Shown: positions 8,338 through 14,806, counted from the first letter of the stretch. The stretch is 64,000 nt of DNA from Candidatus Saccharimonadota bacterium (GCA_030531645.1 JAUNNB010000002.1:8988-72987), one strand, 5' to 3'. Notes: a model not told the origin generated them from the sequence alone. Made by a program: numbers and translations.

Positions 8338-10839
8338 TTATTTCTCCTTTTTATCAATAATTAATATGAGCTTGTCTTTCTTTAAATCAATAGTTGCGAT
8401 TTGACCGCGTTTGATTTCTTCTTTGATGATGGCATCGGAGATGAGAGTTTCGACATTATCTTCAATGGCGCGGCGGAGTGGGCGGGCACCGTTCTTTGGA
8501 TCATAGCCAAGATTGATGAGCCAGTCTTTGGCTTCTGGGGTAATCTTGATGCCGATAGCTTTGGTGGCAAGGCGCTTCTTTAGCTCATTGATGAGGTTAT
8601 CGAAGATTTTTTCAACTTGCTTGTGAGTGAGTGCGTGGAAGACGAGGGTTGCGTCGAGACGGTTGATTAGCTCTGGGCGCATGGCCTTCTTGAGAGCGCG
8701 GAGGGCGGCCTCCTTGGAATATTCATACTCCTCGGCGAGTTTCTTTTCATCGGCCTTAGTTTTGACAGAGAAGCCGAGCTCTTGGTCGTCATACATTTCG
8801 GAAGCACCGAGGTTGGATGTGAGAATAACGACAGTGTTGTTAAATTTAATTTTATTGCCTTGGCCATCGGTCAAAACGCCATCTTCAAGGATTTGGAGAA
8901 GCATATTAAAGACATCTGGGTGGGCTTTTTCGATTTCATCAAAGAGGACCACGGAATATGGACGACGACGGACGGCTTCAGTGAGCTTACCACCGTCATC
9001 ATAGCCGACATAGCCGGCTGGAGCGCCGACAAGACGAGATACATTGTGCTTTTCGCCGAACTCGGACATATCAATTTTAATGAGGGCATTATCACCGCCA
9101 AAGACTTCGCGTGCAATGACGCGGGCGAGCTCGGTTTTGCCGACGCCGGTTGGGCCCATAAAGATAAATGAGCCAATAGGGCGCTTTGGATCACCGACAC
9201 CAGAGCGACCACGGCGGATAGCCTTGGAAACTACTTCAATGGCTTCATCTTGGCCGATGACTTGTTCTTTCAAGTGGTCTTCTAGATTGACTAGAAGTTT
9301 CATCTCAGAACCGTGAACCTTAGAAACAGGGATACCGGTTTTGAGGCTAATAGCAGTAGCAAGGTGTTCTTCGGTGAGCTTTGGTACCTTCTCGGACTTG
9401 CCTTCCTTTGCGGCTTTCTTGGCGCCTTTTTCAGCGGTTTTGAGTTCCTTTTCAAGCTGAGCAAGGCGGGTCTTGTAGAGAGCAGCCTTTTCGAAATCCT
9501 GCTCGTCTGCGGCTTTTTCGATTTTCTCGAGGAGAGATTGTTGTTCGATTTTGAGCTTCTTGTAACGACCACCACCTTTCTTGTCGTGAGCGACTTTGCA
9601 AATAGCGGAAGCTTCATCGATAACATCGATAACTTTATCTGGCATAAAGCGATCGTTGATATAACGGCTGGACATATTGATGGCGGTTTCAAGAATACTG
9701 TCTGAAATGGTGACAGTGTGGTGCTTTTCGTAGTGGGACTTAATTCCCTTGAGGATGCGGAGGGTGACAGCTGGAGATGGCTCTTCGACAACGACAGTTT
9801 GGAAGCGGCGAGAGAGAGCGTGATCTTTTTCGATGCTCTTGCGGTATTCGTCGAGGGTGGTTGCGCCGATGAGGCAAATTTGGCCACGAGCGAGAGCAGG
9901 TTTCAAAATGTTGGCGGCGTCCATAGTGCTGTCTCCGGCGCCACCTGCGCCAACTAAGAGGTGGAGCTCATCGATGAAGAGGATAATTTCTGGGTTCTCG
10001 ATAGTTTCATCAATAACGCCTTTGATGCGTTCCTCAAAATCACCACGGAGTTTAGCACCAGCGACCATAGCGCTGAGGTCGATTTCTATGATGCGCTTGC
10101 CGATAAGTTGGCCCGGGACTTCGTTTTTGGCAATGCGAGTAGCGAGACCTTCGACAATGGCGGTCTTACCAACGCCGGCTTCGCCAATGAGAACTGGGTT
10201 GGACTTAGTGCGACGACAGAGGACGGTAACAGTGCGCTCGATTTCGTTATCACGGCCAATGACGGTGTCGAGTTTGCCTTGGCGGGCTTCTTCGGTGAGG
10301 TCGCGGCCATAGCGAGCGAGGTATTTGAGTTGTTTTTTGTTCTTGAACTTAGCTTTCTTATCTTCAATCTTAGCTTCTTCGGCCTGCTTGACGGCGAGAT
10401 CTTCGATAGTGTCAGCCACTTCATCGAGGTCTAGACCGAGCTTCTGGAGGATAATTGCCGCATGGGAATTAGGCTGAGCGACAATGGAATGGAGAATATG
10501 CTCAGTGCCGATGATTTTGAGCCCCATTTCTTTAGTAAAGACGGCAGCCATTCTGAGAGTGAGGACAGCAGCCTCGGAGAGGGACATCATAGAGAGTTCG
10601 CCAGCCGGAACATCGGTGGCAGGAGCGGAGATTTCGCGCTCGACAGTGTCTAAGTAAATGCCATCATCAGCAAGGATATGGGCGCCAGTAGAAACATCTT
10701 GGTCTAGGATACCGAGGAGAAGATGTTCTGTGGAGATATAACCTTTGTTGTATTTCTTCGCAAAGAAGTCGGCCTTCTGGACCGCAAGACGAGCATTTTC
10801 GGATAGACGATTCATCATCTCTGTAAATTCATCGTTCAT
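8338..10839 (-). CDS. clpC: ATP-dependent Clp protease ATPase (ClpC-type)
   Basis: Clp N-domain, two Walker A motifs ([16 protein letters not shown]), UVR-like middle coil. Confidence 0.92.
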
Positions 10840-10861
10840 ATAGCCATTATACTCCTGTTAA

Positions 10862-10888
10862 TTAGCACTGTCAAGGGTCGAGTGCTAA
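10862..10888. promoter_or_regulatory. CIRCE element (HrcA operator) overlapping the -35 of the clpC operon promoter
   Basis: Minus strand TTAGCACTC-N9-CAGTGCTAA (one mismatch to consensus) containing TTGACA; TATAAT 17 bp downstream (10846-10851). Confidence 0.9.
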
Positions 10889-10944
10889 AATACTGTAGTA
10901 CTGTCGGATTGCGAGATGTTGGATGATGAAGCCTGCGAATTGTA

Positions 10945-11406
10945 TTACTGTTCTGCCATGAGAAGACAGTAGCCGTCCTCACTAATATCTGCTAACAATA
11001 TGAGCCCGAGAATGATCCTGTCTCTTGCCAAAATATGTTGGTCGCTTTTTGGAACGCCAAGCTCACCCTTTTTTGCAGTAATATATGAAATTTCTATGAA
11101 CTTCGTCTTTTTTGAGTAGCGCTTAACAGAGTCAAAAGTATAACTATCGAGCCATTCGTAATCTATGTCTAGACAGCCTTCGTCGGTGAATTCTGCTTCG
11201 TAAATACGTTCGTCCTCTGGTATTCCTAGAATATCGTAGCATTCGTCTATTTTCTTCTTAACTTTTTCATAGTCTGAAATAAAATATACACGGTATTCAT
11301 CTCTATCGCATTCGTCGGATTTGAAAAATTTCTTTGGGTCATCACTTGGCTGTGAATAGCCGAATTTCCCACGTTTCCTCGCAAATGTTGAATAGTATCT
11401 TCCCAT
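10945..11406 (-). CDS. Hypothetical protein (153 aa, start MGRYYS)
   Basis: AAGGAGG RBS before the ATG at 11406; AT-rich; divergent from the HTH-Panacea gene. Confidence 0.7.
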   Translation of the reverse strand: MGRYYSTFARKRGKFGYSQPSDDPKKFFKSDECDRDEYRVYFISDYEKVKKKIDECYDILGIPEDERIYEAEFTDEGCLDIDYEWLDSYTFDSVKRYSKKTKFIEISYITAKKGELGVPKSDQHILARDRIILGLILLADISEDGYCLLMAEQ

Positions 11407-11521
11407 TTTAACCTCCTTTATGTAAATAATTATATACATTGGTTTTGATTTTGCAATAGAAAATATAAATATTTTTGTATTTTTTATTGACTGTATGTTA
11501 AAAATAATATACAATTAAGGT

Positions 11522-12229
11522 ATGGAAGATAAGAATATTTTCAGGATAAATCTGCGTAAGTATAGAAAGATGGCTGGCCTCACTCAAGAGCAGTTTGCAA
11601 AACATCTCGGCATTTCTCGCGTTTCTTATAATAAGTTAGAACAGGGAGACCGTGTCCCTAGTCTGGATGATATTACTAATATTGCACGCATTTTGAATAT
11701 AAGCATGCTGGATCTATTGGATATAGGAGTTATTCCGGAGGCTCATGCACATGAAAAATTTGAGCAAGTATATCATTATATCTTGAATAATTATTTCCCT
11801 GAGGGTATTCCTAAAACTAAACTAGCGAAGATTTTATATCTTATAGACTTCTCAAATTATTACTTGTATTTAGATCCAATGACAGAAGCTACTTATTTCC
11901 ATAAGCCGTATGGTCCCGTAGCGGATGTCTTTCTGGAGCTCACAGATGCTTTGTATGAAGAAGCTAGGATAGATATCCAGATTAATGGCGAAGCTATGCT
12001 TATAAAGCCAGTTGAGAAGCATGATGATAACTTGATTACAGATAGGGATAAAAAATTGATTGAGAAGGTGTGTGATTATTGGAAAGATAGAAGGACGAAA
12101 GAGATAGTGAATTTCACGCATCAGCAGCTGCCTTATAAGACTAGTTATCCTAATAACAGAATCCCATTTTACTCAATAGGACAGGAGGCCCCAGACAATG
12201 TTTTCGCACCAGTTGATATCTACGGATAA
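11522..12229 (+). CDS. XRE-HTH plus Panacea (DUF4065/SocA-like) antitoxin
   Basis: N-terminal LTQEQFAKHLGISRVSYNKLEQG HTH; KTKLAKILYLIDF...PYGPV and LVNFTH-like (IVNFTHQQLPY) DUF4065 motifs. Confidence 0.85.
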   Translation: MEDKNIFRINLRKYRKMAGLTQEQFAKHLGISRVSYNKLEQGDRVPSLDDITNIARILNISMLDLLDIGVIPEAHAHEKFEQVYHYILNNYFPEGIPKTKLAKILYLIDFSNYYLYLDPMTEATYFHKPYGPVADVFLELTDALYEEARIDIQINGEAMLIKPVEKHDDNLITDRDKKLIEKVCDYWKDRRTKEIVNFTHQQLPYKTSYPNNRIPFYSIGQEAPDNVFAPVDIYG

Positions 12230-12632
12230 TTTAGCATTTTTAACCACATTTAGCGAGTACTCTTTAAGGCATTTTAAGAGGAATTTTGAAAAAGATTACC
12301 CTAAAAAGGTATGGAGAGAGACAGAAAAATCTATCCTCTATGAAATCTCAGAAATATCGAAGAATAATTTAGGATTTACTCAAAAAGTTGATGAACTTTG
12401 GCAAAAAGACAACTTTTGGATCTTTAAATATGATTTTCGTATTGTGGGTATGAAGAAATCTACTAGGTCGGCTGGCAATAGGTGTATTGTTTTTCTAGAT
12501 AATCTAAAGAAACAGGCAGAAATACTTCTGATTTATAGAAAGACGGATTTACCTAAAAATAAATCGGAGCAAGCATATATTGAAGCTGTTGTTAGAAACG
12601 AATTTCCTAGTTATTACAGCGCAACTAGATAA
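12198..12632 (+). CDS. Putative RelE/ParE-fold toxin
   Basis: Overlaps the antitoxin 3' end; KYDFRIVGMKKSTRSAGNRCIVF...EILLIYRKTD resembles the RelE-like K.R...GKSGG.R.IY...LL.IY.K pattern. Confidence 0.65.
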   Translation: MFSHQLISTDNLAFLTTFSEYSLRHFKRNFEKDYPKKVWRETEKSILYEISEISKNNLGFTQKVDELWQKDNFWIFKYDFRIVGMKKSTRSAGNRCIVFLDNLKKQAEILLIYRKTDLPKNKSEQAYIEAVVRNEFPSYYSATR

Positions 12633-12634
12633 GG

Positions 12635-12705
12635 CGAAACTGGCTCTATCCCAGGATCTCTGGGCAGGCATCCAGAACGGACGCTTTTCGAGCCAGCCTC
12701 TTTCA
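12635..12705 (-). ncRNA. Candidate small three-way-junction RNA convergent on the toxin gene
   Basis: Stems CTGGCTC/GAGCCAG, GCGTCC/GGATGC and CCCAG/CTGGG; TATAAT at 12712-12717 on the minus strand. Confidence 0.4.
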
Positions 12706-12758
12706 TCAATTATTATACTAAATCGCTAGAAAGATGCTAATAACTTTTATATTGCGTC

Positions 12759-12796
12759 AAAAGGTAATTACCTTTTCAATAGCATGATTACCTTTT
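12759..12796. promoter_or_regulatory. Perfect 18-bp palindrome plus repeated half-site (candidate operator)
   Basis: AAAAGGTAATTACCTTTT at 12759-12776; ATTACCTTTT repeated 20 bp later at 12787-12796. Confidence 0.55.
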
Positions 12797-12852
12797 CCCG
12801 ATAAGCATAAGAACCTATTGCAAAAATGTTTATGTTGTGGTATAATAGTAAC

Positions 12853-12992
12853 AGCTACAACTTTATTCAATACTTTAAAATACTGTTTGTTCACAAGCGT
12901 TAAATAGCGGCCATAATCGCAGTTTATGCTTGTTTTCGAACAGTATTGAATTGCAAAAGTTGTAGCGACTGATTGTGGTCGCTATTTTATTT
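12853..12992 (+). ncRNA. Candidate structured leader or sRNA (long hairpin plus overlapping terminator)
   Basis: Promoter TTGCAA-17-TATAAT (12818-12846); stems 12854-64/12956-66, 12879-89/12937-47 and 12893-99/12927-33; terminator 12963-69/12978-84 plus T-tract. Confidence 0.55.
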
Positions 12993-13010
12993 TATAAAGA
13001 AAGGAATAAT

Positions 13011-13340
13011 ATGTTTGCTGTAGTTGTTATAGCATTGTTATCATATAATATTTTAAAATCAAAAGTATTAAGACAAGAACCGTTAAATGATGCGAATGGG
13101 TTTTTACTGGGCTTCTTTAATCCAATATTACCAGCCTTGCTGATAGTAAACCAATTGGATGGATTGCGAATGCAAGTTAAAACTTCTAGCAGAACAAAAA
13201 GTAGAGCCATAGAAGATGGTATGTGGGATATGAAACGATCAGTTTGGACTGGGATTTTAGCTCGTCTTGTTTTATGTGGCATAATTTTCTTTATACTGAC
13301 ATATAATGGTGGTTATCATAGTTATCATACCTCGTATTAA
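13011..13340 (+). CDS. Small membrane protein (109 aa)
   Basis: AAAGGA RBS before the ATG at 13011; hydrophobic segments. Confidence 0.65.
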   Translation: MFAVVVIALLSYNILKSKVLRQEPLNDANGFLLGFFNPILPALLIVNQLDGLRMQVKTSSRTKSRAIEDGMWDMKRSVWTGILARLVLCGIIFFILTYNGGYHSYHTSY

Positions 13341-13365
13341 AAAGAGCCCCGAGGGGCTCTTTTTT
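13339..13365. terminator. Bidirectional intrinsic terminator
   Basis: AAAAGAGCCCC-GA-GGGGCTCTTTTT between convergent genes. Confidence 0.8.
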
Positions 13366-13612
13366 AGACTTCTTCTGTGTGACCACAGTCTTGGCAGACG
13401 GCAATTTTCTTTTGGACATTCTTGATCTTTTTGCGTTTCCCTACGAAAATCGCAAAGATGAGTGCCGGAATTGTGAATATGAGCCACTTTATGAAAATCC
13501 ACCACCAACCAATGCAAAGCCACCAGATGATGCCATGATGTTTTGTGACTAGCTCAGATTCGTTGACTACCTGAACCTGCATATTTGAGCTTTTGCATTT
13601 TGGACAATTCAT
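13364..13612 (-). CDS. Small membrane protein with split zinc ribbon (LITAF-like topology)
   Basis: CPKC at the N-terminus, Trp-rich hydrophobic hairpin, CQDC at the C-terminus. Confidence 0.7.
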   Translation of the reverse strand: MNCPKCKSSNMQVQVVNESELVTKHHGIIWWLCIGWWWIFIKWLIFTIPALIFAIFVGKRKKIKNVQKKIAVCQDCGHTEEV

Positions 13613-13621
13613 CTGATACTC

Positions 13622-14806
13622 CTATTCCCCGAGGATTTCACCGGCTTTGCGGATCATTTCTTCGAACTCATCGGTGCGGATGACCCAAATAGGTTTGGAG
13701 CCTTCTGATGCGATGTTGGTATGGCGCTCAGGCATATCGGCGACATTCTTGTCCTCGTCGAGAGAGAAGCCGAGGTATGCGAGCTTTTGACAGACCATCT
13801 TGCGGATTTCGTCGGAGCGTTCGCCGATAGTAGCGGTAAAGACGATTGCGTCTACGCCACCGAGAGAGGCAGCCATCTGGCCAATAGCGGTCTGAATGCG
13901 ATAAACATAGAGGGCGTGGGCGAAAGTACCGAGCTTATCGCCTTCGTCGCGGAGTTGGATAATCTCGCGCATGTCATCAGTTTTACCAGATACGCCTTTG
14001 AGGCCACATTCCTTATTGAGGTATTTCTCAAGTGCTTCATCAGAGGCGATCTTCTTGTTTTTCTTGATAGCGAGAGCAGCTGCGACATCGATATTGCCGG
14101 AGCGGGTGGACATCATAAGACCATCGAGTGGGCTGTAACCCATAGTGGTATCGTGGCTTTTGCCATCAAAGACAGCGGTAAGTGAAGAACCAGAACCGAT
14201 GTGGCAGACAATAAGTTTCTCTGGGAGGATTTCCTCTTTCTTCATGTAGTTGACGATAGAGCCAACAGAGAGGCCGTGGAAGCCCCAACGCTTGATATCG
14301 TATTTATCGGCGAGCTCTTGGTCGATAGCGTAAGCCTTCATAAGCTCTGGACGAGCAGTATGGAAGCCGGAGTCTGAAATGGCAATAATAGGGGTGCCAC
14401 GGAAGGTGACCATAAAGTGCTCGATTTCGGCTGCAACTACAGGAACATGGAGAGGTGCCTTTTTCTTGGCTACTTCAAGTTGTTTCAAACATTCATCATC
14501 AACGATGTGATCGTGTGAGAAGTATTCACCAGGGGCGGCAACGCGAGCTAGGATGGCATCGAGACCGCGAGCTTTGGTGATATAGCCTTCGTCTTCGAGG
14601 ATGTTATCGAGGTTGGCAACGGTAGATGTGAGTTCCTTGAAAGCACAGTTAATCTTTTTCTTGGAACCATCAGCCTTCTTCATCGTACAGACTATTTTGC
14701 CGCCTTCGAACTCGAAGTGGAACGAACATTCAAGCTTGTCGCCGTGGTAGAGAGCGTATTTACGAGAAGAACTCCCTGGATTAGTAATCAAAATCAGTTT
14801 TTCCAT
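13622..14806 (-). CDS. ackA: Acetate kinase
   Basis: NPGSSSRK, RWGFHGLS, HIGSGSS, MGYSPLDGLMMSTRSG and FTATIGE motifs. Confidence 0.92.
   Translation of the reverse strand: MEKLILITNPGSSSRKYALYHGDKLECSFHFEFEGGKIVCTMKKADGSKKKINCAFKELTSTVANLDNILEDEGYITKARGLDAILARVAAPGEYFSHDHIVDDECLKQLEVAKKKAPLHVPVVAAEIEHFMVTFRGTPIIAISDSGFHTARPELMKAYAIDQELADKYDIKRWGFHGLSVGSIVNYMKKEEILPEKLIVCHIGSGSSLTAVFDGKSHDTTMGYSPLDGLMMSTRSGNIDVAAALAIKKNKKIASDEALEKYLNKECGLKGVSGKTDDMREIIQLRDEGDKLGTFAHALYVYRIQTAIGQMAASLGGVDAIVFTATIGERSDEIRKMVCQKLAYLGFSLDEDKNVADMPERHTNIASEGSKPIWVIRTDEFEEMIRKAGEILGE

What the first reader, a model, noticed from the sequence alone, without database searches (positions are those of the whole stretch)
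11522..12632. HTH-Panacea antitoxin paired with a divergent RelE-like toxin in a CPR genome
Seen: an XRE-HTH fused to a DUF4065-type domain, overlapping a 144-aa basic ORF with a RelE-like C-terminal pattern, in a visibly AT-rich islet with a leaderless promoter (TTGACT-17-TACAAT). Established: Panacea-domain antitoxins neutralise many unrelated toxins, including RelE-type RNases, and some act as anti-phage sensors. Inference: a new PanA-toxin pairing, possibly phage defence, in a lineage with few described defence systems.
Basis: partly seen in the sequence, partly recalled or inferred. Interest (0 to 1): 0.7.

Follow-up and report, generated by a model that had tools for sequence, protein, structure and literature searches.

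The report
Panacea antitoxin with RelE/HigB2-like toxin
This is a real two-gene toxin-antitoxin cassette in a Saccharibacteria genome: a DNA-binding "Panacea" antitoxin followed by a diverged RelE/HigB-2-type toxin that probably cuts mRNA on the ribosome. The same kind of pair was already listed, untested, in a 2022 survey, so it is ordinary.

Summary
panA (11522-12229) encodes HTH_3 plus SocA_Panacea, both above Pfam cut-offs. It overlaps by 32 nt a 144-aa basic ORF (12198-12632, pI 9.45) that matches no Pfam, NCBIfam, PADLOC or PHROG model.

- **Fold:** an AlphaFold2 model of that ORF (pLDDT 85.5) matches almost only RelE, HigB2, YoeB and YafQ structures.
- **Catalytic residues:** a profile of 103 relatives hits V. 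cholerae HigB-2. It places R81, R95, Y113 and K115 on the four experimentally defined catalytic residues.
- **Linkage:** an HTH-Panacea gene lies directly upstream and overlapping in 39 of 41 related loci. A Shine-Dalgarno sequence for the toxin sits inside the antitoxin's conserved Q-E-D codons.
- **Distribution:** the pair is patchy (12 of 401 genomes of the class) and lies in the most AT-rich 2.8 kb of the window. One distant relative is prophage-borne.

The "new pairing" claim fails. Kurata et al. 2022 (Dataset S1, cluster pT15/T14) already list HTH-PanA with HigB-2-like partners in Saccharibacteria, untested. This scan has reached the same verdict on at least eight other genomes. A phage-defence role is unsupported.

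In passing: the GC-rich element abutting the toxin stop codon is an orphan DUF3800-IX RNA (Rfam RF02968).

The parts
10840..13621 (.). AT-rich accessory islet between clpC and ackA that holds the cassette
   Evidence: GC is 35.8%, the lowest 2.8-kb stretch of the window (median 46.3%). The neighbouring 153-aa ORF (10945-11406, -) has no homologue in 300 other genomes of the class. clpC-ackA synteny is not kept in the closest relatives.
11454..11489 (.). Inverted repeat (16-nt arms, 88% complementary, 4 nt apart) abutting and overlapping the -35 box; candidate operator for the HTH domain
   Evidence: I1. Related loci carry a conserved palindrome (CAACA-N5-TGTA) in the same position just upstream of TTGACA. 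Binding is inferred, and the DNA is AT-rich, so chance cannot be excluded.
11487..11515 (+). Sigma-70-type promoter TTGACT-17-TACAAT; the -10 box ends 6 nt before the panA ATG (leaderless geometry)
   Evidence: the same geometry is conserved in about 15 related loci. The transcription start was not measured.
11522..12229 (+). panA: antitoxin, 235 aa, XRE-type HTH plus Panacea domain
   Evidence: Pfam HTH_3 and SocA_Panacea, both above cut-off. AF2 model has pLDDT 90.1; the HTH part superposes on C.AhdI, C.BclI, SinR and P22 c2 at 1.1-1.6 A.
11552..11713 (+). HTH_3 DNA-binding domain (residues 11-64)
11822..12136 (+). Panacea/DUF4065 domain, Pfam match (residues 101-205); the folded domain in the AF2 model spans about residues 73-228
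   Evidence: The invariant tail motif IPYxLIxQEDPxHVY is modelled at pLDDT above 80 as part of the globular domain.
12183..12188 (+). AGGAGG Shine-Dalgarno sequence for panT, embedded in the panA Q221-E222 codons, 9 nt before the ATG
   Evidence: An SD-like core in the same Q-E-D codons is present in 32 of 34 related loci. This implies translational coupling and dual coding.
12198..12632 (+). panT: toxin, 144 aa, divergent RelE/HigB-2-like fold
   Evidence: AF2 pLDDT 85.5, pTM 0.82. Foldseek top 32 PDB hits are all RelE-superfamily toxins (RelE, HigB2, YoeB, YafQ, HigB, PfiT); best is 1wmi_A (prob 1.0, TM 0.69). Family profile against PDB: HigB-2, E 0.011. hhalign against a PF06296-type alignment: prob 78%, E 1.7e-5.
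12438..12542 (+). Predicted catalytic core (residues 81-115): R81, basic loop 84-94, R95, Y113, K115
   Evidence: These align to V. cholerae HigB-2 Arg51, the Lys-rich beta2-beta3 loop, Arg64, Tyr82 and Lys84. The catalytic roles come from Hadzi et al. 2017, PMC5416850. In 103 family representatives K77, R95 and K115 are each 102/103, Y113 is 101/103 and E124 is 103/103.
12632..12700 (-). Neighbour, not a conserved part of the cassette: DUF3800-IX RNA (Rfam RF02968), convergent with panT and ending on the last base of its stop codon
   Evidence: 47.1 bits against a gathering score of 36.8, E 2.5e-8, full-length match. It is absent beside the pair in 20 related loci. There is no DUF3800 gene or remnant in the islet.
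12712..12740 (-). Promoter-like site TTAGCA-17-TATAAT that would drive the DUF3800-IX RNA
   Evidence: consensus match only.

Best explanation
This is a chromosomal, horizontally acquired type II toxin-antitoxin cassette of the PanAT kind.

Shown: the two genes exist. They are translationally coupled, with a 32-nt overlap and the toxin's SD inside the antitoxin's codons. They are inherited as a pair across many genomes.

Predicted from structure and alignment: PanT has a RelE/ParE-superfamily fold closest to RelE and HigB-2. It keeps the HigB-2 catalytic set (R81, R95, Y113, K115) and a basic beta2-beta3 loop.

Inferred mechanism: free PanT enters the ribosomal A site and cleaves translating mRNA, arresting growth. 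PanA binds and neutralises it. Neutralisation is probably through the globular Panacea domain, because the AF2 model shows no disordered neutralising tail and no extra PAD1, ZBD or Phd-C domain. The N-terminal XRE HTH dimerises on an inverted repeat overlapping the -35 box and autorepresses a probably leaderless operon. The trigger that frees the toxin, and any biological role (stabilising the islet, stress response, phage exclusion), are unknown.
For: - **Domains of PanA:**. Models.
- **PanT family:** no known-family hit, but a conserved family of at least 201 clusters at 50% identity.
- **Fold:** AF2 plus Foldseek give the RelE superfamily.
- **Catalytic alignment:** the profile hit to HigB-2 aligns all four catalytic residues. 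hhalign against PF06296-type toxins gives E 1.7e-5.
- **Conservation:** K77, R95 and K115 are each 102/103, Y113 is 101/103 and E124 is 103/103.
- **Linkage:** an HTH-Panacea gene is directly upstream and overlapping in 39/41 loci. The same holds for 30%-identical relatives.
- **Coupling:** SD-like core inside the Q-E-D codons in 32/34 loci.
- **Charge:** basic toxin and acidic antitoxin.
- **Mobility:** patchy distribution, 12/401 genomes of the class and 1 of 35 other genomes of the genus; the AT-rich islet; a prophage-borne relative.
- **Regulation:** promoter and operator geometry.
- **Literature:** precedent in Kurata 2022 and Ernits 2023.
Against: - No experiment exists. Toxicity, neutralisation, complex formation and RNA cleavage are all untested for this family; T14 is marked 'notest' in Kurata 2022.
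- The window protein hits no RelE-type Pfam model at E up to 1.
- Foldseek E-values are modest (best 2.4e-3), and TM scores normalised to the query are only 0.4-0.46, because the protein is about 50 residues longer than RelE.
- The Arg51 equivalent is basic in only 53/103 family members.
- The invariant E124 has no known counterpart in HigB-2, so the chemistry may differ.
- RelE and ParE share a fold, so a gyrase target is not formally excluded.
- A PanA-PanT complex could not be modelled with the tools available.
Confidence: 0.75

Rival explanations
1. An anti-phage abortive-infection system. The Panacea domain senses a phage cue and releases or activates the RelE-like toxin, so the cassette is primarily a defence gene rather than an addiction or stress module.
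For: Ernits et al. 2023 hypothesise a sensor role for Panacea. Some relatives sit beside Type ISP or MmeI restriction-modification genes and PLD-like genes. One relative lies between the integrase and the endolysin of a predicted prophage, a typical site for exclusion genes.
Against: PanT matches no PADLOC model, and PanA matches PADLOC models only through the generic HTH. Other relatives lie among housekeeping genes. No phage data exist for this family. The sensor idea is a hypothesis even for studied PanAs.
Confidence: 0.15
2. The toxin is a ParE-like gyrase poison, or has another non-RNase activity on the same fold, rather than a ribosome-dependent mRNase.
For: RelE and ParE share one fold. 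The ParE-like PfiT structure appears among the Foldseek hits, ranks 3, 5 and 7. ParE domains occur among PanTs. The invariant E124 is not part of the HigB-2 catalytic set.
Against: The best and most numerous structural hits are mRNases (RelE, HigB2, YoeB, YafQ, HigB), and the PfiT hits have TM of only 0.31-0.33. The only sequence-level hits are to HigB-2 and PF06296. The HigB-2 catalytic Arg, Tyr and Lys are near-invariant.
Confidence: 0.07
3. It is not a toxin-antitoxin pair. It would be an XRE-family regulator with a conserved, non-toxic small partner, or the toxin would be decayed and inactive in this genome.
For: There is no experimental toxicity for any member. The protein hits no curated family.
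Against: The reading frame is intact. All predicted catalytic residues are retained in the window copy and are near-invariant over 103 diverged representatives, which implies purifying selection on the active site. Gene order, overlap and charge asymmetry are canonical for type II TA pairs.
Confidence: 0.03

Closest known systems
PanAT systems, specifically predicted PanT cluster pT15/T14 of Kurata et al. 2022 (PNAS 119:e2102212119, Dataset S1)
   Same: HTH-Panacea antitoxin upstream of, and slightly overlapping, a small 'hypothetical protein' whose remote-homology best hit is V. cholerae HigB-2. Members are listed in Saccharibacteria (Ca. Saccharimonas aalborgensis, TM7 HOT_356) and are experimentally untested.
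   Different: I could not fetch the listed accessions, so identity of this family with T14 is inferred, not shown. Overlaps listed for the Saccharibacteria T14 pairs are 11 nt, against 32 nt here and 23 or 26 nt in most relatives; start-codon calls may explain this. The nearest relatives of the window protein are only 55-56% identical.
Vibrio cholerae HigB-2/HigA-2 (Pfam PF06296; Hadzi et al. 2017 NAR, PMC5416850)
   Same: RelE-like fold. The basic beta2-beta3 loop, followed by the G-x-R strand and the (I/L)LL(I/V)Y-x-K strand, aligns. Arg51, Arg64, Tyr82 and Lys84 correspond to R81, R95, Y113 and K115.
   Different: PanT is 144 aa against about 110 aa, with longer N-terminal helices and a two-helix C-terminal extension carrying an invariant Glu-Thr. 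It fails the PF06296 model. Gene order is antitoxin-then-toxin with a Panacea antitoxin, whereas the PF06296-type locus examined here (L042) has toxin first and then an HTH antitoxin. PF06296 itself was not found above its cut-off in 301 sampled Patescibacteria genomes.
E. coli / archaeal RelE-RelB (PDB 4FXH, 4V7J, 1WMI)
   Same: Best structural match is 1wmi_A (prob 1.0, TM 0.69 normalised to the target). The predicted mode of action is A-site mRNA cleavage.
   Different: Sequence identity is 11-21%. The antitoxin is unrelated: RelB is a ribbon-helix-helix protein with a disordered C-terminus, against HTH plus a globular Panacea domain here.
B. fungorum MqsR-type PanAT and standalone PanAs (Ernits et al. 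2023 PNAS, PMC10440598)
   Same: A Panacea antitoxin paired with an mRNase toxin, with the HTH proposed to autoregulate.
   Different: There the zinc-binding domain neutralises MqsR, and HTH-Panacea alone is insufficient. Here no ZBD, PAD1 or Phd-C domain exists, so direct neutralisation by Panacea is the likelier, untested, mode.

Membership tests
PanAT (Panacea-antitoxin TA systems) | Antitoxin carries the Panacea/DUF4065 domain (PF13274) | tested here: met
   54.5 bits against a cut-off of 25.7, E 2.7e-14, full-length model match. The AF2 model of the domain is confident.
PanAT (Panacea-antitoxin TA systems) | Conserved two-gene neighbourhood of PanA with one partner family across diverse genomes | tested here: met
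   PanA is directly upstream and overlapping in 39/41 loci. The same holds for 30%-identical relatives.
PanAT (Panacea-antitoxin TA systems) | The partner is toxic, and PanA neutralises it by forming a complex | not testable with these tools
   This needs expression and rescue assays plus pull-down. No complex prediction tool was available.
PanT cluster pT15/T14 (Kurata 2022) | Sequence clustering with the listed accessions (e.g. WP_015641600.1, WP_129619247.1) | not testable with these tools
   The accessions could not be retrieved. Cluster look-up returned no WP numbers. Ca. S. aalborgensis was not among the pattern-scan hits, but that scan finds only close relatives.
PanT cluster pT15/T14 (Kurata 2022) | HTH-PanA partner, antitoxin-then-toxin order, remote homology to HigB-2 | tested here: met
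   compared with the Dataset S1 rows.
RelE/ParE superfamily | Fold: beta1, two N-terminal helices, antiparallel beta-sheet, C-terminal helix | tested here: met
   Predicted only. AF2 elements in order are strand, three helices, four strands and two helices, with pLDDT 85.5. The Foldseek top 32 hits are all RelE-superfamily toxins.
RelE/ParE superfamily | Recognised by a curated sequence model (PF05016, PF06296, PF05973, PF15738 and others, or NCBIfam RelE/ParE) | tested here: not met
   The window protein has no hit at E up to 1. Only 1 of 103 relatives touches PF06296, at E 0.014.
HigB-2-type RelE mRNases | Catalytic Arg51, Arg64, Tyr82 and Lys84 on the sheet face, plus a basic beta2-beta3 loop | tested here: met
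   By profile alignment, R81, R95, Y113 and K115 occupy these positions, with loop GMKKSTRSAGN. R95 and K115 are each 102/103 and Y113 is 101/103. The Arg51 position is basic in only 53/103, but K77 on the same strand face is 102/103.
HigB-2-type RelE mRNases | Ribosome-dependent cleavage of mRNA in the A site | not testable with these tools
   Needs in vitro translation and cleavage assays.
Known anti-phage defence systems (PADLOC-DB 2.0) | Match of the effector to a defence-system model | tested here: not met
   PanT has 0 hits. PanA hits only generic HTH models (control proteins, CapH, RmrA N-termini).
DUF3800-IX RNA (Rfam RF02968), the neighbouring element | Covariance-model score above the gathering threshold | tested here: met
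   47.1 bits against 36.8, model positions 1-67 of 67.
DUF3800-IX RNA (Rfam RF02968), the neighbouring element | Adjacent DUF3800 (PF12686) gene | tested here: not met
   No DUF3800 gene or remnant lies in 10700-13700. Seven of the ten RNA loci examined do have one.

The most novel reading that the evidence does not exclude
The DUF3800-IX RNA at 12632-12700 is not just a leftover. In relatives this RNA usually lies convergent to a DUF3800 gene and within a few nucleotides of its stop codon. Here it has exactly that geometry with panT instead. That would suggest a modular 3'-end or antisense RNA that can partner different toxic effector genes, for example by limiting or sensing toxin expression. 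Equivalently, it could mark a cassette-exchange hotspot where a DUF3800 effector was precisely swapped for a PanAT module.
Probability: 0.1. Interest if true: 0.6.

Novelty: new member of a known kind. Interest (0 to 1): 0.2.

Why it matters
It matters little beyond annotation. It gives a name and a testable mechanism to a Pfam-less family that is widespread in Saccharibacteria, with at least 201 clusters at 50% identity. The predicted mechanism is a HigB-2-like mRNase with catalytic R95, Y113 and K115 and an invariant E124. It also supplies a clean example of an HTH-Panacea antitoxin that has no separate neutralising domain. Such an example would be useful for testing whether Panacea itself neutralises a RelE-fold toxin. 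The dual-coding detail, with the toxin's SD and ATG embedded in the antitoxin's invariant QED-x-HV codons, explains part of the conservation of the PanA tail. No new principle is at stake, because the pairing was catalogued in 2022.

Tried and rejected
- **Direct family searches of PanT:** Pfam, NCBIfam, PADLOC, PHROGs and PDB sequences gave nothing. The narrow 27-sequence profile against PDB also gave nothing. Only the broad 103-sequence profile reached HigB-2.
- **Linking the family to Kurata's T14 accessions:** this failed. The cluster look-up gave no WP numbers. NetFlax supplements do not list the accessions. The Parapedobacter hit L041 was a chance match inside a FecR-like gene, and that genome has no family member.
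- **Insertion boundaries by synteny:** this failed, because clpC is not next to ackA in the closest relatives.
- **DUF3800-IX RNA as part of the cassette:** rejected. It is absent from 20 related loci.
- **A decayed DUF3800 gene in the islet:** no remnant was found.
- **Phage and plasmid databases:** no match to PanT.
- **Foldseek of PanA:** it matched only the HTH part. No solved Panacea structure surfaced.
- **PanA-PanT complex:** it could not be predicted, because the structure tool takes single chains only.

Full report
**Observation**

The region holds two co-directional, overlapping ORFs. ORF 11522-12229 (235 aa) matches Pfam HTH_3 at residues 11-64 (E 9.2e-16). It also matches SocA_Panacea/PF13274 at residues 101-205 (E 2.7e-14). 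Both matches are well above the curated cut-offs.

ORF 12198-12632 (144 aa) overlaps it by 32 nt. It has pI 9.45, against 5.67 for the first protein. It matches nothing in Pfam, NCBIfam, PADLOC, PHROGs or PDB sequences.

The stretch 10840-13621 has 35.8% GC. That is the lowest of all 2.8-kb windows in the 64 kb, whose median is 46.3%. TTGACT-17-TACAAT lies at 11487-11515, and the -10 box ends 6 nt before the ATG.

**The partner gene is real and linked**

A first search found 28 homologues of 100-148 aa, none with a Pfam domain. All share the N-terminal 'MF'. This fixes ATG 12198 as the start, not the TTG at 12213 that a gene caller used.

An exhaustive profile search found 201 clusters at 50% identity with E up to 1e-3.

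In loci recovered through exact-protein look-ups and a scan of GTDB genomes, an HTH-Panacea gene lies immediately upstream and overlapping in 39 of 41 cases. This holds even for relatives only 30% identical to the window toxin. The overlap is usually 23 or 26 nt.

The toxin's Shine-Dalgarno sequence (AGGAGG at 12183-12188 here) is embedded in the antitoxin's invariant Q-E-(D/A) codons. The toxin's ATG sits inside the following H/N-V codons. An SD-like core is present there in 32 of 34 loci. This indicates translational coupling. It also explains part of the strong conservation of the PanA C-terminal tail.

**What the toxin is**

AlphaFold2 on the 27-sequence alignment gave a confident model (pLDDT 85.5, pTM 0.82). 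Its elements in order are one strand, three helices, four strands and two helices.

Foldseek against the PDB returned RelE-superfamily toxins in all of the first 32 places: archaeal RelE, HigB2, E. coli RelE, M. tuberculosis RelE2, YoeB, YafQ, HigB and the ParE-like PfiT. The best hit is 1wmi_A, with probability 1.0 and TM 0.69 normalised to the target. E-values are modest (from 2.4e-3). Query-normalised TM is 0.4-0.46, because PanT is about 50 residues longer than RelE.

Independent sequence evidence agrees:
- A profile of 103 diverse family members hits V. cholerae HigB-2 chains as its five best PDB matches (E 0.011-0.016).
- hhalign of that profile against an alignment of bona fide PF06296 toxins gives probability 78%, E 1.7e-5, over the beta2-beta4 core.

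The alignment places window R95 on HigB-2 Arg64, Y113 on Tyr82 and K115 on Lys84. Extending it by one residue places R81 on Arg51. These are exactly the four residues whose alanine substitutions lower HigB-2 activity 170- to 3000-fold (Hadzi et al. 2017). The Lys-rich beta2-beta3 loop is also mirrored (GMKKSTRSAGN).

Across the 103 representatives, K77, R95 and K115 are each 102/103, Y113 is 101/103 and E124 is 103/103. The Arg51 position is basic in 53/103.

The protein is therefore best read as a diverged, enlarged HigB-2/RelE-type toxin, with ribosome-dependent mRNA cleavage as the most likely activity. This is inferred, not shown. It is not a member of PF06296 by score. PF06296 itself was not found above its cut-off in 301 sampled genomes of the phylum.

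**The antitoxin**

The AF2 model of PanA (pLDDT 90.1) shows three parts: an XRE-type HTH (residues 3-66), a short lower-confidence linker, and one globular domain from about 73 to about 228. That domain includes the invariant tail motif IPYxLIxQEDPxHVY.

Foldseek matches only the HTH part, to C.AhdI, C.BclI, SinR and P22 c2 at 1.1-1.6 A. There is no PAD1, zinc-binding or Phd-C module.

Ernits et al. 2023 showed that such added modules do the neutralising when present, and that standalone Panacea can neutralise directly. Direct neutralisation by the Panacea domain is therefore the more likely mode here. This is inference.

An inverted repeat with 16-nt arms (11454-11489) overlaps the -35 box. 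Relatives of the 140-aa clade carry a conserved CAACA-N5-TGTA palindrome at the same place. Both fit HTH-mediated autorepression.

The leaderless geometry of promoter and ATG recurs in about 15 related loci with diverged spacers. Other clades use Shine-Dalgarno leaders.

**Distribution and mobility**

- The family was found in 12 of 401 sampled genomes of the class.
- It was found in only 1 of 35 other genomes of the same genus, at a different locus and only 34% identical.
- Most hits in GTDB genomes are Saccharibacteria MAGs. A few are in MAGs labelled Eubacteriales, Bacilli, Sphaerochaetaceae and Coriobacteriia.
- The neighbouring 153-aa ORF is unique among 301 genomes searched.
- One distant pair lies in an IMG/VR contig between a large serine recombinase and an endolysin.
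- There is no match in GenBank phages or PLSDB plasmids.

All of this fits a mobile accessory cassette.

**Comparison with what is known**

Kurata et al. 2022 report 343 HTH-bearing PanAs, with MqsR-like and ParE domains among PanTs. Their Dataset S1 lists cluster pT15/T14. Its HHpred best hit is HigB-2 at 99.73%. It has HTH-PanA partners in antitoxin-then-toxin order in Ca. Saccharimonas aalborgensis, a TM7 oral strain, Cryosericum, Flexibacter and Pedobacter. All are marked 'notest'.

I could not fetch those accessions. Identity of this family with T14 is therefore probable but unproven. Either way the kind is catalogued.

After I had reached this conclusion, the scan's own records showed at least eight earlier follow-ups on other genomes with the same verdict.

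The defence idea has only circumstantial support. Some relatives have restriction-modification neighbours, and one is on a prophage. Others have housekeeping neighbours, and there is no PADLOC match.

**Side finding**

The GC-rich element that ends on the toxin's stop codon (12632-12700, minus strand) is a full-length DUF3800-IX RNA: Rfam RF02968, 47.1 bits against a gathering score of 36.8. It is preceded by a promoter-like site at 12740-12712.

The genome's other copy sits directly upstream of a true DUF3800 gene. In six other genomes of the family, the RNA lies convergent to a DUF3800 gene and within a few to about 20 nucleotides of its stop codon.

Here there is no DUF3800 gene or remnant, and panT occupies that position. 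The RNA is absent beside the pair in 20 related loci, so it is not part of the cassette. The preserved geometry may reflect cassette exchange at a hotspot, or a more general role of the RNA.

**Verdict**

This is a well-supported, ordinary member of an already catalogued, experimentally untested kind of type II toxin-antitoxin system. Interest is low.

Noticed in passing
window 12632-12700 (-), promoter-like site 12740-12712 (-): Full-length DUF3800-IX RNA (Rfam RF02968, 47.1 bits) convergent with panT and ending on the last base of its stop codon, with no DUF3800 gene nearby. In relatives the RNA usually abuts the 3' end of a convergent DUF3800 gene, so PanAT occupies the place of that gene here. 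This identifies the 'three-way-junction RNA' of another first-stage note.
   Followed up: partly
G000 contig C5:30453-31200 (L063:1501-2213): The genome's second DUF3800-IX RNA copy lies between a DUF2806 gene and a DUF3800 gene (PF12686, E 1.2e-14), co-directional with both. A further DUF3800 gene on contig C6 has no detected RNA.
   Followed up: partly
L001:4405-5688, L004:4423-5718, L005:1992-3287; L048:3402-4901: In some relatives a third gene overlaps or abuts the toxin's 3' end: a 427-431-aa DUF2130 protein in one clade and a 499-aa protein without Pfam domains in another. These are possible accessory genes of three-gene PanAT variants. No such gene exists in the window.
   Followed up: no
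L107:1377-6466 (IMG/VR UViG_3300027891_000022): A 30%-identical HTH-PanA and PanT pair sits between a large serine recombinase and an Amidase_2/PG_binding endolysin in a predicted viral contig, so it appears to be prophage cargo.
   Followed up: partly
window 10945-11406 (-): A 153-aa ORF divergent from panA has no family hit and no homologue in 300 other sampled genomes of the class. It is a strain-specific orphan in the same AT-rich islet.
   Followed up: partly
L001, L003, L004, L007, L022, L026, L028-L032, L036, L037, L039 (about 55 to 20 nt upstream of the panA -35 box): A conserved motif AAAACGCAACA-N5-TGTA-N-TGTATTATTGACA precedes the leaderless panA promoter in the 140-aa toxin clade. 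It is a likely PanA operator. The window has a different inverted repeat at the same position.
   Followed up: partly
L040:2294-3084: A Lachnospiraceae MAG carries an intact HTH-PanA followed by only a 28-residue remnant of the toxin's C-terminal part. This may be an orphaned antitoxin after toxin decay.
   Followed up: no
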